Shown in pieces: positions 5,088-62,661 of a DNA stretch of 64,000 bases; position 1 is the first letter of the stretch, and every line of letters begins with the position of its first letter. This stretch comes from Escherichia phage EC.W2-6. The DNA lies in the sequence record PP445229.1, one strand, 5' to 3'. The notes below the pieces were generated by a model, which was not told the origin of the DNA, ran no database searches, and worked only from the letters and a program-made list of their open reading frames with translations. Position numbers and translations under genes: made by a program.

Positions 5088-5111
5088 TTGGTAGTAGATA
5101 TGATAACTCTC

Positions 5112-5122
5112 AAATGTATATA
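5112..5122 (+). promoter_or_regulatory. candidate phage-specific promoter element (AATGTATA motif)
   Basis: AAATGTATATA about 40 nt upstream of ATG 5160. Confidence 0.3.
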
Positions 5123-5159
5123 GAGTACAATAAGAATTTGTATTTTACAGGAGAGAGTT

Positions 5160-8535: not shown

Positions 8536-9269
8536 GTCGTCGTCAATCACGGAAAGAATCACGGAAAGACCTTCGTCGAGAAGCACTTGTTACTCGTAAG
8601 GGTAAGCGAGAGTATGAAGAGGTGGTTTTAGCAAAGCCTGTAGTCCCTCAGAACCAGTTTCAGTCTGAGCTACTCAATGCTATTAAGACTAAACAAGTTG
8701 TGTTCACAGACGCTCCTGCGGGCTGTGGTAAGACCTTTGTAATCACTTCCACGGTTATTGATGCACTGAAGAGTGGTAAGATTCAGAAGATCATCCTGAG
8801 TCGACCTTCAGTTGGCATGGGTAACTCTCTTGGGTTACTTCCGGGAGGAATGCGTGAGAAGTTTGAACCATACCTGATGCCTATCATTGATGTTATTACT
8901 CAGCGATACGGTAAGGGATTCTATGAATGCCAAATCGGAAATGGTAACATTGAATTTGTACCTCTGGAATATCTCCGTGGTCGCTCTTTCAACGATGCCA
9001 TTGTTATCGTAGATGAGTTCCAGAACACAACTAAGGATGAAGCCTTCTCCATCATGACTCGATTGGGAGAAACCTCTCAATTGTTCTGTATGGGTGATAC
9101 AAACCAGCATGATATGCGTGGTCGCGAGAGTGGTCTAACTTGGGCTACTAACTTTATTGATGAACACGATCTGTATGAGTTTGCTGAGATTGTAGATGGT
9201 GAATCAGATGATATTGTTCGTTCTGGTTTCTGTAAGGCGATTGTTAAAGCAATGGAAAAGAAAGCTTAA
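8532..9269 (+). CDS. phoH: PhoH-like ATPase
   Basis: Walker A DAPAGCGKTF and PhoH-like length/layout. Confidence 0.8.
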   Translation: MSRRQSRKESRKDLRREALVTRKGKREYEEVVLAKPVVPQNQFQSELLNAIKTKQVVFTDAPAGCGKTFVITSTVIDALKSGKIQKIILSRPSVGMGNSLGLLPGGMREKFEPYLMPIIDVITQRYGKGFYECQIGNGNIEFVPLEYLRGRSFNDAIVIVDEFQNTTKDEAFSIMTRLGETSQLFCMGDTNQHDMRGRESGLTWATNFIDEHDLYEFAEIVDGESDDIVRSGFCKAIVKAMEKKA

Positions 9270-11346: not shown

Positions 11347-13191
11347 GTGAGCAACCCGGACGCTCTTCCATTTTTGACAGAGATGACTGTCGCTGATATA
11401 ATCTCTAAGCAAGCAAAGCACGGAGTTAGTTTCAACCGAAGAAATGCTCGGTGGTATGTTCACCTCCTTAAAGAGATTATTGTTAATATTGACAGAGAGT
11501 TGATTCCTCTCTTACCTAAGATGAGATTAGATGGCTCTACTTATATGAAGCCGTTTAAGAAGTCTGGAGCTTTACAGAAGTGGCCTCAAGCTTATTGTGA
11601 TAGGGTTGGGCTGAAAAGAGAAGACATTGGTGGAGCATTCACCTGTGTCGAATATGTAGACTTTGATCCATCGAAAGATGCACGAGTTAAAGAAGCTCTT
11701 ATGGATGAGGGCTTTCTTCCTCCAGAGTTTAACGTATCTAAGAAGCCTTGGAATACTTTCGAAATTAAGAAAGATATGAGAAAGTATGGAACATACCAAG
11801 CATGGTATACTGCTTGGATGCGAGGTAATGCTAAACAGAAGCAGACAGCCGAGATGGTTGACGCTGATATTAGAAAGTTCTTAGAGAAGCATTTTCGGTT
11901 TAAAACTAAGAACTACATGAAGGCTTACGTATTTGGTTTGGGATTAAACCCTAATCGCCGTAATCCTGTAACGTTTGATGAGATTAAGAAAGCACTAGCC
12001 ACATCAAACAAGTGGCCTACAGCTCCTACAAACCTCGAGGAGACTCTTGAAGAAGGGTTAGGGGGTGAGCTAGGGAGTGTCGGAAGTTTGCTTAAGAGAC
12101 GCGTTGTGGCGGCTCACAGGCTAGGTCTTATCAGTGGACTCATAGCAAAGGAACGCGAAGATGGTAAACTTTCGGCAGAAGCTAACAGCTGCGCTACGCC
12201 GACTTTTCGATTCAAACATCGTATCGTGGTTAATATTCCCTCCCGTGGTCTGTTTGGTCACGAGTGTCGCAGTTTGTTTGAGTCTGACTATAACTCAGAC
12301 AGTGATCACTCTCGTCCTTTCGTTATTACTAACGTTGTTCCTGATGGTTGTTATATACGAAAAGGTACTAACGTAATTTACGAGAAAGGTAAGCCGGGGA
12401 AGAAAGACAAACCTGTAGGCGCTTACAAATATTACATACCCACTGGTAAAGAAGTATTCTTAGGGTATGATGGTTCTGGACTGGAACTTCGTATGCTCGC
12501 TCACTACCTCATTAAAGAGTGTAGGGATATGCTTGCTGAGGCAATTGAAGAGAACAACCCAGCTAAGAAAGCTCTGGCAGAACGTGGTTTAGCTTCTGCT
12601 ATTATGTATCGTGATATTCTCCTTGAAGGTGATATCCACTCCCACAACCAGAAACTTGCTGGTCTTCCTACTCGTGACAACGCTAAGACATTTATCTATG
12701 CATTCAACTACGGTGCTGGCGATGCTAAGCTTGGTTCAATTGTAGGTGGTGGGGCTGACGAAGGTTCAGTGATGCGAGCACGTTTCTTAGCAGAGAACCC
12801 ATGTATTGCAATCCTCATTGATCGTATGACAGAGAAAGCTGCTCAAGGATACTTGATTGGAGTTGATGGTCGTAAGATTACAATGAGACGGGATGCCACT
12901 GGTAAGGTTATGGTTCATAAAGCCCTTAACACACTCCTGCAATGTGCTGGTGCTGTTGTTATGAAATATGCTATGATGTTCCTTAACAAGTGGATTGAGA
13001 AAGATAAGGTTCGTTGTGCTAAGGTAATTGATATGCACGATGAAGGTCAATTCTCAGTAAACCGTAATGATGTACAGAAACTCAAAGAGCACACTGAGCT
13101 TTGTGTTAAGAAAGCTGGCGAGTATCTGAACATGGAATGTCCTCTGGCATCTGATTGTCAGATTGGACTTAACTGGATGCATACACACTAA
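11347..13191 (+). CDS. DNA polymerase, family A polymerase domain (T7 gp5-like)
   Basis: DGSGLELRMLAHY (motif A) and GDIHSHNQ...LPTRDNAKTFIYAFNYGAGDAKLG (motif B) closely match T7 gp5; GTG start with AAAGGAG RBS. Confidence 0.9.
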   Translation: MSNPDALPFLTEMTVADIISKQAKHGVSFNRRNARWYVHLLKEIIVNIDRELIPLLPKMRLDGSTYMKPFKKSGALQKWPQAYCDRVGLKREDIGGAFTCVEYVDFDPSKDARVKEALMDEGFLPPEFNVSKKPWNTFEIKKDMRKYGTYQAWYTAWMRGNAKQKQTAEMVDADIRKFLEKHFRFKTKNYMKAYVFGLGLNPNRRNPVTFDEIKKALATSNKWPTAPTNLEETLEEGLGGELGSVGSLLKRRVVAAHRLGLISGLIAKEREDGKLSAEANSCATPTFRFKHRIVVNIPSRGLFGHECRSLFESDYNSDSDHSRPFVITNVVPDGCYIRKGTNVIYEKGKPGKKDKPVGAYKYYIPTGKEVFLGYDGSGLELRMLAHYLIKECRDMLAEAIEENNPAKKALAERGLASAIMYRDILLEGDIHSHNQKLAGLPTRDNAKTFIYAFNYGAGDAKLGSIVGGGADEGSVMRARFLAENPCIAILIDRMTEKAAQGYLIGVDGRKITMRRDATGKVMVHKALNTLLQCAGAVVMKYAMMFLNKWIEKDKVRCAKVIDMHDEGQFSVNRNDVQKLKEHTELCVKKAGEYLNMECPLASDCQIGLNWMHTH

Positions 13192-14323: not shown

Positions 14324-14339
14324 GTCTAAAGGATTTGAC

Positions 14340-14732
14340 ATGAATATTGGTTTAGATTATGATGACACTTACACAGCAGATAGACGTCTGTGGAGAGATG
14401 TGATAGGATTGATGAAAGGGTATGGACATGATGTAAGATTCGTGACTTTCCGTTTCTCAGAGCCTAATGGTTATGATAACGTGGATATCCTCTATGATGC
14501 AGAGACCCTGCAAATCCCTGTCATCTTTTGTAATGGTGTGCAGAAGGATGAGGTGTGTCGACAGTTAGGTTTCTTCGTCGATATCTGGATTGATGACTTC
14601 CCTGTTGGAATCCCCAAAAAGGACCACCTAGATGGTATGCTGAAGGGCGTAAGACTTAATGACCTTAGGGCAGCACCTCCTGTAGAAATAGCCGCTCCTG
14701 TGTACTCTGAAGAGCCTTTGGTGATTCGATGA
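14340..14732 (+). CDS. HAD-like phosphatase/nucleotidase (tentative)
   Basis: N-terminal IGLDYDDTYT (DxD motif I-like) and WIDDFP; AAAGGA RBS. Confidence 0.4.
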   Translation: MNIGLDYDDTYTADRRLWRDVIGLMKGYGHDVRFVTFRFSEPNGYDNVDILYDAETLQIPVIFCNGVQKDEVCRQLGFFVDIWIDDFPVGIPKKDHLDGMLKGVRLNDLRAAPPVEIAAPVYSEEPLVIR

Positions 14733-15845: not shown

Positions 15846-16089
15846 AGAACCTGTAGTACATAAAGATTCTATCAGAGATCAATATAATGAGATGTTAAAG
15901 AAACAAGCTGATTCTAATCTTCGTTATCAGAGGATAGTAGAACAATCTAACTTTAAAGGTTTACTTGAATGGTAACTTATATCCTTTACTTTTTAGCTTT
16001 CTTAGGAATAGTCTTTTTATCTATTCTTATTGAATTTGGTTTAAGTAAGTTAGTTAATTATTTAGGTAATAAGTAATTAATATTCTTTT

Positions 16090-16155
16090 AAATAGAGAAT
16101 CAAAGTCCCTAGGAGTCCCTACAACCTAAATCAAGGATTCCTTAATTCTCTATTT
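16090..16155. repeat. inverted repeat (11-bp arms) in AT-rich intergenic region
   Basis: AAATAGAGAAT at 16090-16100 and its complement ATTCTCTATTT at 16145-16155. Confidence 0.5.
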
Positions 16156-16323
16156 TTATCTCGCAGGTGGCTCCTGCCCTTCGGTACTTGCAAGGGATTC
16201 TGTGAATTGCCCAATATACAAGCCTGCAATAACTTTATCAGCTATACAATATATACATTACTAGTGTGATATATCTACTACCAAAGATACTTATATTATA
16301 TAGTACTCTTATCGGTATAAGCG

Positions 16324-16334
16324 TAATGTATACT
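16324..16334 (+). promoter_or_regulatory. candidate phage-specific promoter element (TAATGTATACT)
   Basis: Exact TAATGTATACT 58 nt upstream of SSB gene. Confidence 0.35.
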
Positions 16335-16391
16335 ATACATAACCGCTCAAAGAGAGCAACAATCTTTCAAATTAAATAAGGAAATTAAAAT

Positions 16392-17138
16392 ATGTCTATG
16401 ATTCCAACTATCGCAACCGCTTCCCGTAAATCCAACTACGATGTAATCCCTGATGGTGAGTACGAAGCACGTATCGTTCGTGTAGTAGGTTTGGGTGTTC
16501 ACAATCGTGACCCTTGGATTGACCCGAAGACCAAAGCAGTGACTCCTAAGAATCCGGCTTTCCGTATGGATTTAGCTTTCGAGCTGATTGGTGTTGATGC
16601 TACTGGTAAAGATTCCGATGGTAAGGCATTAGAACCACGTCCAGCTTGCCAGTTCAAGAGCTATGATGTAAACCCACGAGCTAAGAACTCTGGTATTCTT
16701 GATCTTTGCAAGATGATTGACCCAAGTATTCAAGCACTGAAAGGTGATCTATCTTGGTTCAAGGATGTTCTGTTAGGTCAGCCTGTTAACATTCTGGTTA
16801 ACTCTTATACTAACAAAGCTGGTGAAGTTAAAAACTCCATCAAGACCATTTCTCCAATCCCAACCAAATATCGTGCAGCAGTTGGTGAAGCTCGTAGTCC
16901 TCTGGTATTCTTCGAACCATATGCTGAAACCGACGAGAACGTAGCATCCTACCAACTGATGTTCCCGTTCCAGCGCAACCTGCTTACTCAAGCTAATGAC
17001 GCTAAGAACATGCCTCTGGCTGGTCGTGAAATTACTCGTGCTTCTGAAACAGAGCAGAAAGAAGCTACTCCTTCAATCCCTACGATTGATAAAGAGCCTG
17101 CTTCTACTTACGAAGACGACAACGATAGCCCATTCTAA
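16392..17138 (+). CDS. single-stranded DNA-binding protein (T7 gp2.5-like)
   Basis: Acidic C-terminal tail ending in Phe (YEDDNDSPF), strong codon bias, own upstream region and terminator. Confidence 0.65.
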   Translation: MSMIPTIATASRKSNYDVIPDGEYEARIVRVVGLGVHNRDPWIDPKTKAVTPKNPAFRMDLAFELIGVDATGKDSDGKALEPRPACQFKSYDVNPRAKNSGILDLCKMIDPSIQALKGDLSWFKDVLLGQPVNILVNSYTNKAGEVKNSIKTISPIPTKYRAAVGEARSPLVFFEPYAETDENVASYQLMFPFQRNLLTQANDAKNMPLAGREITRASETEQKEATPSIPTIDKEPASTYEDDNDSPF

Positions 17139-17149
17139 TAACTCTCCTT

Positions 17150-17173
17150 GTTATAGCTTAGCCACCTCCGGGT
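17150..17173 (+). terminator. intrinsic terminator after SSB gene
   Basis: AGCCACC-TCCG-GGTGGCT then TTTTTT. Confidence 0.7.
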
Positions 17174-17195
17174 GGCTTTTTTCGTTGGAGACAAC

Positions 17196-62585: not shown

Positions 62586-62661
62586 GCGCTCTTAGCTCAA
62601 TGGATAGAGCAGTAGCCTTCTAAGCTATTGGTTACAGGTTCGAGTCCTGTAGGGCGCACCA
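62586..62661 (+). tRNA. tRNA-Arg (anticodon UCU), CCA encoded
   Basis: Cloverleaf by hand: 7-bp acceptor GCGCTCT/AGGGCGC, D-arm GCTC/GAGC, anticodon stem GTAGC/GCTAT with loop CTTCTAA, T-arm ACAGG-TTCGAGT-CCTGT, then ACCA. Confidence 0.85.

What the first reader, a model, noticed from the sequence alone, without database searches (positions are those of the whole stretch)
15976..16391. AT-rich 415-bp intergenic region with an inverted repeat upstream of the SSB gene: candidate origin or regulatory hub
A long gap without genes precedes the heavily expressed SSB gene. It contains an 11-bp inverted repeat (16090-16100 / 16145-16155) around a CCCTAGG-containing loop, further hairpins, and the TAATGTATACT element on one strand with TATACATTA (its complement) on the other at 16252-16260. 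The layout resembles replication origins placed next to promoters.
Basis: inference. Interest (0 to 1): 0.4.

Follow-up and report, generated by a model that had tools for sequence, protein, structure and literature searches.

The report
Back-to-back phage promoters plus hidden RNA
The gap upstream of the SSB-like gene of this phiEco32-type coliphage holds the already known phage-sigma promoter for that gene, plus an unannotated, strongly conserved promoter on the other strand that probably makes a ~160-nt structured non-coding RNA; nothing here shows it is a replication origin.

Summary
The window is a Kuravirus (phiEco32/SU10-like) genome. The region is AT-rich, and the 11-bp inverted repeat and both TAATGTATA copies are real. 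However, a 35-aa gene annotated in relatives (phi32_41 homologue) trims the gene-free gap to 315 bp (16077-16391).

The + strand TAATGTATA is P40, one of six experimentally mapped promoters of the phage sigma factor gp36.

The - strand copy has not been reported in any paper I could read. It carries TTGGTAGTAGATAT-11 nt-AATGTATATA. Both elements and the spacing are identical to P68, the promoter solved in the gp36 cryo-EM open complex.

It points away from gene 40, into the best-conserved stretch of the locus. The predicted RNA (16245 to about 16085) has four parts:
- a 5' hairpin starting exactly at +1, with four unrelated sequence families that all pair;
- a swappable central module (four versions);
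- a GC hairpin with one compensatory change;

On the + strand that repeat is followed by T5 and probably terminates the upstream operon.

"Regulatory hub" is supported. "Origin" is untested: GC skew shows nothing, and more distant relatives lack the element. An orphan phage promoter firing into AT-rich DNA does recall T4 and T7 origins.

The parts
15969..16076 (+). 35-aa hydrophobic ORF (phi32_41 homologue).
   Evidence: ORF. Annotated as a CDS in WFI101126, Bas90 and phiEco32. Matches phrog_24970 at E=1.8e-25. Absent in Suseptimavirus-type relatives.
16090..16157 (.). Outer stem 16090-16103/16142-16155. On the + strand there is also an inner stem, 16110-16117/16135-16142. The loop holds the direct repeat AGTCCCTA x2 (16104-16111, 16114-16121). 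T5 follows at 16153-16157. It is the probable + strand terminator of the upstream operon and the 3' hairpin of the - strand RNA.
   Evidence: Almost invariant in 26 distinct sequences. Not called by the terminator scan, because the loop exceeds 8 nt and the stem is AU-rich.
16163..16177 (.). GC hairpin GCAGG-TGGCT-CCTGC.
   Evidence: Invariant stem, and variation only in the loop (G/T) across relatives. One compensatory A-U to U-A change in L045 (GCTGG/CCAGC).
16184..16224 (-). Variable central module (version A here). Replaced by unrelated versions B, C or D in other lineages, between the conserved CCCTTC and TGCAA.
   Evidence: The module C hairpin shows two compensatory pairs plus a U.G that would be A.C on the + strand.
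16229..16245 (-). 5'-terminal hairpin of the predicted - strand RNA (AUAGCU-GAUAA-AGUUAU), starting at the predicted +1.
   Evidence: Nine sequence variants from four unrelated families all fold over the whole segment. The commonest variant has a G.U pair, which becomes A.C on the + strand, where the MFE is 0.0.
16250..16284 (-). Unannotated gp36-type promoter P(-). Reading 5'->3' on the - strand: TTGGTAGTAGATAT at 16284->16271 (positions -39..-26), an 11-nt spacer, then AATGTATATA at 16259->16250 (positions -14..-5). Predicted +1 = 16245.
   Evidence: Both elements and the spacing are identical to P68 (5088-5122 +). The -37G, -34A and -14..-11 AATG contacts are defined in the P68 open-complex structure (PMC12276001). 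Conserved in all 26 distinct relatives that carry the element.
16085..16245 (-). Predicted non-coding RNA, about 160 nt here and 150-195 nt in relatives. The 3' end is not defined.
   Evidence: Fold gives -45.8 kcal/mol, z = -2.4. Relatives give z = -1.5 to -3.3. No conserved ORF. No Rfam family.
16300..16339 (+). P40, the known gp36-dependent middle promoter of gene 40. TAATGTATA at 16324-16332. Predicted +1 = 16339.
   Evidence: The region is 99.4% identical to phiEco32.
16339..16391 (+). Gene-40 leader. Hairpin GCUC-AAAGA-GAGC (16345-16357), then an AU-rich stretch with Shine-Dalgarno AAGGA (16378-16382).
   Evidence: The stem co-varies in relatives: GUUC/GAAC, GUCC/GGAC, GAAGAG/CUCUUC.
16392..17138 (+). 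Gene 40 (phi32_40 homologue), a predicted OB-fold ssDNA-binding-like protein with an acidic C-terminal tail.

Best explanation
The 315-bp gap is a compact transcription-control region of phiEco32-type phages. It is built from two back-to-back promoters for the phage sigma factor gp36, with predicted start sites 94 bp apart.

P40 (+ strand, +1 about 16339) makes the mRNA of the SSB-like gene 40. This part is already known.

P(-) (- strand, +1 about 16245) is a copy of the P68-class middle promoter. It has no gene downstream. I propose that it transcribes a stable, structured non-coding RNA of about 160 nt with four parts:
- a 5' hairpin that starts at +1 and would protect the RNA from 5'-end-dependent decay;
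- a lineage-specific exchangeable middle module;
- an invariant GC hairpin;

The same inverted repeat, read on the + strand, is followed by T5. It most likely terminates and 3'-stabilises the upstream middle operon. The two convergent transcripts would then overlap exactly at this hairpin.

My committed mechanism, with low confidence in this last step, is that the RNA works like lambda OOP. It would pair with the complementary 3' end, or read-through, of the upstream transcripts. That would insulate gene 40 expression from the upstream operon, and divergent firing of P(-) would help the weaker P40.

Shown: the sequence identity to mapped promoters, the conservation, and the covariation of the 5' hairpin, the module C hairpin and one pair of the GC hairpin.

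Inferred: that P(-) fires in vivo, where the RNA ends, and what it does.
For: Identity of the phage:
- The region is 100% identical to Escherichia phage EC.W14-3 and 98-99% identical to SU10 (1.9-kb query) and phiEco32 (315-bp intergenic query).

P40:
- The window carries the same 41-mer as the SU10 promoter table.
- Gene 40 is one of six genes behind experimentally mapped gp36 promoters.

P(-):
- The 12-mer TGGTAGTAGATA occurs only twice in 64 kb, at P68 and here. In both places it lies 12 nt upstream of AATGTATA. Read directly, the identity extends to TTGGTAGTAGATAT, an 11-nt spacer and AATGTATATA.
- The bases contacted by gp36 in the P68 open complex (-37G, -34A, -14A, -13A, -12T, -11G) are all present.
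- The other four exact TAATGTATA copies in the window all lie at mapped promoters: P58, P40, P26 and P13.
- The -35 and -10 elements and their spacing are conserved in every relative that has the element, including contigs whose gene-40 protein is only 71% identical.

The RNA:
- The conserved block 16107-16196 has 0.93-0.99 identity, as high as or higher than the flanking coding sequence.
- The 5' hairpin begins at the predicted +1 in nine variants from four unrelated sequence families.
- G.U pairs in the commonest 5'-hairpin variant and in module C favour the - strand, as does the XT32 (L016) outer-stem substitution, which keeps a G.U on the - strand.
- Module C shows two compensatory pairs, and the GC hairpin shows one.
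- Fold z-scores are -1.5 to -3.3.
- No conserved ORF is present; a 1-nt indel in module A breaks the only 32-aa frame.
Against: - No transcript data were available. P(-) is not among the six published promoters, and I could not read Pavlova et al. 2012.
- There is no U-tract after the hairpin on the - strand, and no convincing - strand terminator within 4 kb. The 3' end is therefore undefined, and the RNA may simply be a long antisense read-through.
- Fold z-scores are as good on the + strand.
- The 3' domain is almost invariant, so it gives essentially no covariation.
- In three lineages the -10 element reads AATGAA with spacing one base shorter, and one contig has AATATA.
- A 16-nt weight matrix built from the six known promoters ranks P(-) only 12th in the window at 10.8 bits, because its flanks differ, although the 11-nt core equals that of P26.
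- A pure cis-antisense role does not explain why even the loops are invariant.
Confidence: 0.55

Rival explanations
1. Transcription-primed replication origin. P(-) is an orphan middle promoter whose untranslated transcript runs into the AT-rich stretch 16000-16090. There it forms an R-loop or primer for the phage DNA polymerase. This is the arrangement at T4 ori(34) and ori(uvsY) and at the T7 primary origin (established knowledge of those systems; not tested here).
For: - The promoter has no gene behind it and points against all neighbouring genes.
- The DNA just downstream is among the lowest-GC DNA of the window, down to 0.18, and the RNA there would be A-rich (AT skew).
- The element is unique in the 64 kb.
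- It lies among replication genes: DNA polymerase at 11347-13191 and the OB-fold gene 40.
- It is of the middle class, matching the time when replication should start.
- The strong sequence invariance would suit protein recognition.
Against: - There is no skew switch or other compositional signature at 16 kb.
- There is no iteron array, only two 8-bp direct repeats.
- The element is missing upstream of the gene-40 homologue in Grimontviridae and in the L034-L036/L044 lineage, although those phages share the replication genes.
- The covarying 5' hairpin and module hairpins point to a stable RNA product rather than a transient primer.
- The AT-rich stretch is poorly conserved and partly coding.
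Confidence: 0.2
2. There is only a terminator plus P40. The inverted repeat with T5 is the intrinsic terminator of the upstream operon. The - strand motif is a silent promoter look-alike. The conservation reflects frequent recombination through a shared intergenic 'linker' rather than selection on an RNA.
For: - On the + strand the hairpin is directly followed by TTTTT.
- The + strand is certainly transcribed from upstream promoters.
- Modules and flanks are clearly shuffled between lineages: A/B/C/D versions, the ES17 insertion, and presence or absence of gene 41.
- The + strand fold z-scores are comparable.
Against: - The stem is AU-rich and the structure is 66 nt long, unlike this phage's canonical terminator at 17160-17177.
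- The conservation extends about 25 nt beyond the T-run and includes loops.
- An accidental promoter would not keep both elements and their spacing in all 26 distinct sequences.
- A hairpin would not co-vary exactly at its predicted +1.
Confidence: 0.15
3. A DNA-level operator. A phage or host protein binds the direct repeats AGTCCCTA-GG-AGTCCCTA (one helical turn apart), or the cruciform, and controls P40 and/or termination.
For: - The repeats are 10 bp apart.
- The motif is kept as AGTCCT x2 in the other lineage.
- Loop nucleotides are invariant.
Against: - There are only two 8-bp copies, more than 180 bp from P40.
- No candidate binding protein was identified.
- This does not explain the - strand promoter or the covarying hairpins.
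Confidence: 0.1

Closest known systems
phiEco32 gp36-dependent middle/late promoters (P68, P58, P40, P26, P13, P6)
   Same: P40 here is the homologue of the mapped phiEco32 P40. P(-) has the same -10 core as P26 (TAATGTATATA) and the same -39..-26 element and spacing as P68.
   Different: P(-) is on the opposite strand to all middle genes, has no ORF downstream, and is not among the six published promoters. Its activity is untested.
Lambda OOP RNA and P22 sar RNA (short phage antisense RNAs made from their own promoter against an operon)
   Same: A small untranslated RNA from its own promoter, convergent with and complementary to the end of a neighbouring transcript.
   Different: OOP and sar end at proper intrinsic terminators, and their sequences are not otherwise constrained. 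Here there is no - strand U-tract, the 3' domain is invariant including its loops, and the middle module is exchangeable.
T4 ori(34)/ori(uvsY) and the T7 primary origin (phi1.1A/B): a phage-specific promoter plus a downstream AT-rich unwinding element
   Same: An orphan phage-specific (middle) promoter followed by very AT-rich DNA, located among replication genes.
   Different: About 160 nt of conserved, structured RNA lies between the promoter and the AT-rich DNA. There are no replication data. The element is absent from related phages that have the same replication genes.
Bidirectional or shared intrinsic terminators between convergent transcripts
   Same: A hairpin flanked by an A-tract and a T-tract, sitting where two convergent transcripts meet.
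   Different: The stem is AU-rich, the hairpin is 66 nt long with an internal loop, and a T-run is present on one side only.

Membership tests
gp36 (phiEco32 sigma) promoter | -10-like element tAATGTAtA, with AATGTA centred at -11.5 | tested here: met
   Exact TAATGTATA at 16324-16332 (+) and at 16260->16252 (-). Consensus from PMC12276001, PMC4281155 and PMC8948821.
gp36 (phiEco32 sigma) promoter | Upstream (-35 region) contacts -37G and -34A at P68 spacing | tested here: met
   P(-) carries TTGGTAGTAGATAT at -39..-26, identical to P68. P40 itself has ATAGTA there, so only -34A is present.
gp36 (phiEco32 sigma) promoter | Lies upstream of a middle or late gene | tested here: not met
   This is true for P40. 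P(-) has no conserved ORF downstream.
gp36 (phiEco32 sigma) promoter | Start site mapped in vivo, or transcription in vitro by core RNAP plus gp36 | not testable with these tools
   Reported for P40 in phiEco32 (cited in PMC8948821). No data exist for P(-).
Replication origin of the T4/T7 transcription-primed type | Phage-specific promoter followed by an AT-rich unwinding region | tested here: inconclusive
   P(-) is followed, after about 160 nt, by DNA of 18-25% GC. Intergenic DNA in this genome is generally AT-rich.
Replication origin of the T4/T7 transcription-primed type | Replication initiates there | not testable with these tools
   This needs marker-frequency data or origin-cloning assays. 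GC skew follows gene orientation, with extremes at about 22.0 and 52.4 kb, not at 16 kb.
Intrinsic (Rho-independent) terminator | GC-rich stem-loop immediately followed by a U-run | tested here: inconclusive
   On the + strand there is a U5 directly after the hairpin, but the stem is AU-rich and the structure is 66 nt long; the scan did not call it. On the - strand there is no U-run.
Any described RNA family (Rfam 15) | Covariance-model match at or near the gathering score | tested here: not met
   Only the tRNA-Arg at 62586 passes in the window. In 15900-16450 the best E-values are 2.9-6.8, far below gathering scores.
Structured non-coding RNA (generic) | Compensatory base changes that keep helices | tested here: met
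   Met for the 5' hairpin (pair types UA/GC, GC/GU and CG/AU/UA, plus three entirely different stems), the module C hairpin (two double changes) and the GC hairpin (one). The long 3' hairpin is invariant and so uninformative.
Single-stranded DNA-binding protein (gene 40) | OB fold and an acidic C-terminal tail | tested here: inconclusive

The most novel reading that the evidence does not exclude
The orphan promoter and its RNA are the phage's replication-initiation device. A gp36-made, structured transcript would form the primer or R-loop in the adjacent AT-rich DNA. This would make it the first origin defined for the Gordonclarkvirinae, and a hybrid of the T4/T7 'promoter plus unwinding element' design and the ColE1 'folded primer RNA' design. 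A second reading that is also not excluded is that it is a new class of modular phage RNA, whose invariant 3' scaffold binds a host or phage protein and whose exchangeable middle module sets specificity.
Probability: 0.22. Interest if true: 0.65.

Novelty: new member of a known kind. Interest (0 to 1): 0.42.

Why it matters
phiEco32 is the model for phage-encoded sigma factors, with a cryo-EM structure of gp36/gp79/RNAP on P68. Its published promoter map has six promoters, all in front of genes.

A seventh, P68-class promoter that faces the other way and drives a conserved non-coding RNA would add an unrecognised player to this well-studied regulatory circuit. It would also give a concrete candidate for the still unknown replication origin of these therapeutic-candidate coliphages.

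The prediction is cheap to test: one in vitro transcription reaction, or one 5'-end mapping experiment.

If P(-) is silent, the region is ordinary: a known promoter plus a terminator.

Tried and rejected
- Rfam at gathering and at E<=10 gave no family for either strand. tRNA/tmRNA scanning found nothing here.
- The sigma-70 promoter and terminator scans gave nothing above shuffles in the gap.
- Coding potential of the - strand 32-aa ORF 16131-16229 is rejected. It has a TTG start and no Shine-Dalgarno sequence, it is broken by a 1-nt indel in SU7-type phages, and it is replaced entirely in module B, C and D phages.
- A search for other copies or trans targets inside the window found only the P68 -35 element. 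A 15/16 match of module A to 8913-8928 looked like a possible target. It does not co-vary in L032 (11/16), so I treat it as chance.
- There is no similarity to E. coli genomes and no exact match of the hairpin core in 185,579 bacterial species genomes.
- Thermodynamic strand discrimination failed. The - strand MFE is 3.5-10.5 kcal/mol lower, but z-scores are alike.
- GC skew used as an origin test was uninformative.
- A degenerate search for the GC hairpin in IMG/VR gave only known relatives plus four chance hits in unrelated coding DNA.
- Single-sequence structure prediction of gp40 failed at pLDDT 36 and was repeated with an alignment.
- Pavlova 2012 and Savalia 2008 are not held in the library. 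One literature search was wasted on loose terms.
- The 16-nt PWM is overfitted to flanks and was not used as evidence for P(-).

Full report
**What the window is.** A 1.9-kb stretch around the finding is 100% identical to Escherichia phage EC.W14-3. It is 98-99% identical to SU10 and other Kuravirus phages, and the 315-bp gene-free gap is 99.4% identical to phiEco32. Here the middle genes run on the + strand. The late genes run on the - strand further downstream, and GC skew simply follows this layout. The ORF at 16392-17138 is the homologue of phi32_40.

**Checking the observation.**
- The gap, its low GC, the inverted repeat and the two TAATGTATA copies are all present at the stated coordinates.
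- The gap is shorter than stated. The 35-aa ORF 15969-16076 is annotated as a gene in relatives and belongs to a PHROG, which leaves 315 bp (16077-16391).
- The repeat alone is only mildly unusual: 7 of 300 shuffles reach 11 bp. Conservation is what makes it stand out. In an alignment of 12 diverged phages, 16107-16196 is the best-conserved part of 1.5 kb. In 15 phages the block from 16091 to about 16184 is nearly invariant, loops included.

**The + strand motif is a known promoter.**
[quoted passage not shown] Its promoters share tAATGTAtA, with AATGTA centred at -11.5.
- Six promoters were mapped experimentally, in front of genes 6, 13, 26, 40, 58 and 68.
- The SU10 promoter table lists, between CDS37 and CDS38, a 41-mer identical to window 16319-16359.
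- So 16324-16332 is the -10 element of P40. Using the numbering of the P68 open-complex structure, +1 falls at about 16339.
- The 53-nt leader begins with a small hairpin (16345-16357). Its stem co-varies in relatives: GUUC/GAAC, GUCC/GGAC and GAAGAG/CUCUUC.

**The - strand motif is a second, complete promoter.**
- Read on the - strand, the sequence is cTTTGGTAGTAGATATatcacactagTAATGTATATAttgtAtag. P68, at 5088-5122, reads TTGGTAGTAGATATgataactctcaAATGTATATAgagtAc.
- The 14-nt upstream element, the 11-nt spacer length and the 10-nt downstream element are identical.
- TGGTAGTAGATA occurs only at these two places in 64 kb.
- In the cryo-EM structure of RNAP-gp36-gp79 on P68, gp36 contacts -37G and -34A in exactly this upstream element, and -14A, -13A, -12T and -11G in AATG. 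Mutating them abolishes activity. All six bases are present here.
- The four other exact TAATGTATA copies in the window all lie at mapped promoters.
- Both elements and their spacing are kept in all 26 distinct sequences that carry the locus. These include metagenomic contigs whose gene-40 protein is only 71% identical. In those distant lineages the -10 element reads AATGAA and the spacing is one base shorter. One contig has AATATA.
- I found no mention of this promoter in the papers I could read, and none of 98 GenBank records annotates it. The original mapping paper was not available.

**What lies downstream of P(-).**
- There is no conserved ORF. The predicted transcript starts at 16245.
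- It begins with a hairpin that spans +1 to +17. Nine sequence variants belonging to four unrelated sequence families (AUAGCU/AGUUAU, AGAGUUA/UAACUCU, ACAUC/GAUGU, AUCUCU/AGAGGU) all pair over the whole segment, and all are followed by UGCA. In the commonest variant, which is the window's, one pair is G.U. That pair is A.C on the + strand, where the segment does not fold at all.
- Next comes a module that differs completely between lineages. Version A is here. Version B is in MN05, ECBP2 and ES17. Version C is in L033, L039 and L045. Version D is in L042. Within version C, two base pairs change on both sides (C-G to G-C, U-A to C-G) around a U.G pair, which again favours the - strand.
- Then follows the invariant 3' domain.
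- On the - strand this hairpin forms 14-16 contiguous pairs using G.U pairs. The one substitution seen there (XT32) keeps a G.U on the - strand and breaks the pair on the + strand.
- Whole-RNA folds have z = -1.5 to -3.3, but the + strand does as well, so energy does not decide the strand.

**The inverted repeat on the + strand.** It is followed directly by TTTTT (16153-16157), and an inner stem GGAGUCC/GGAUUCC forms with a G.U pair. The + strand is certainly transcribed from upstream promoters. A role as terminator and 3' stabiliser of the gene 41-43 transcripts is therefore likely, even though the stem is AU-rich and the consensus scan did not call it. On the - strand there is no U-run after it, and no good terminator for 4 kb. 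The 3' end of the - strand RNA is therefore unknown. Rho termination followed by trimming back to the hairpin is my inference.

**Distribution.**
- The element is found in Kuravirus, Suseptimavirus, Nieuwekanaalvirus and a few metagenomic relatives.
- It is absent upstream of the gene-40 homologue in Grimontviridae and Lahexavirus. These phages (7-11, GAP52, Privateer, LAh_8, PKM.Lu.22.1) have gaps of only 50-100 bp containing just a promoter and a leader hairpin.
- It is also absent in one intermediate lineage, L034-L036 and L044.
- It has no match in E. coli genomes or in 185,579 bacterial species genomes.

**Interpretation.**
- The 'regulatory hub' reading is correct and can be made precise: two back-to-back gp36 promoters, one known and one new, plus a shared hairpin where convergent transcripts meet.
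- I consider a stable non-coding RNA the best reading of the - strand unit (confidence about 0.55 for the unit as described). My committed but weakly supported mechanism is an OOP-like antisense and insulating role, with divergent firing helping P40.
- The invariance of loops and the exchangeable module suggest a protein partner that I could not identify.
- The origin reading remains possible (about 0.2). Orphan phage-specific promoters firing into AT-rich DNA are exactly what T4 and T7 origins look like (established knowledge). Nothing measured here supports initiation at this site, and relatives with the same replication genes lack the element.

Noticed in passing
window 16345-16357, and homologous leaders in L018, L021, L033, L039, L042, L045: The gene-40 mRNA leader carries a small hairpin about 7 nt after the P40 start. 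Its stem co-varies across families (GCUC/GAGC, GUUC/GAAC, GUCC/GGAC, GAAGAG/CUCUUC, GAGAGA/UCUCUC). An unstructured AU-rich stretch with the Shine-Dalgarno sequence follows. The layout recalls the autoregulated T4 gene 32 leader; that comparison is from memory.
   Followed up: partly
window 26510 (-) and 43340 (-), versus 5113 (+) and 16259 (-): The two late promoters P26 and P13 share TAAGACCTA at -38..-30. P68 and the new P(-) share TTGGTAGTAGATAT at -39..-26. This suggests class-specific upstream elements for a sigma factor originally described as recognising a single element.
   Followed up: partly
window 11374-11402 (+): A perfect sigma-70 consensus (TTGACA, 17 nt, TATAAT, with an upstream TG) sits at the start of the ORF listed for the DNA polymerase. 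A second site matching 11 of 12 lies at 14335-14363.
   Followed up: no
L008 (ES17) about 700-840; also L024, L027, L029-L031: One lineage has a roughly 140-bp insertion carrying a 47-aa annotated ORF between the -35 element of P(-) and P40. It also has a G-to-T change in the -35 element (TGGTAGTATATC).
   Followed up: no
L001 3349-3762 (WFI101126; also SU10, FH3, 1-6af, Ptacy1532): An HNH homing endonuclease gene is inserted immediately downstream of gene 40 in several relatives but not in this window. HNH genes also flank the homologue in L034, L042 and GAP52.
   Followed up: no
L037 1-199 and L038 1-203: Two independent metagenomic contigs (23 and 29 kb) end about 200 bp upstream of the gene-40 homologue, inside this intergenic region. 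The likely cause is an assembly break from strain variation in the exchangeable module. This was not checked.
   Followed up: no
window 5127-5141 (+): The P68 transcript also seems to start with a short hairpin at +1 (ACAA-UAAGAAU-UUGU). This hints that 5'-terminal hairpins are common on gp36-made RNAs. It was read from the sequence and not tested.
   Followed up: no
window 62586-62661 (+): A tRNA-Arg(TCT) gene, the only Rfam or ARAGORN hit in the window.
   Followed up: no
window 8913-8928 (+): A 15/16 match to module A of the predicted RNA (16/16 for the phiEco32 variant of the module), inside a 245-aa ORF. It does not co-vary in L032, so it is probably chance.
   Followed up: yes
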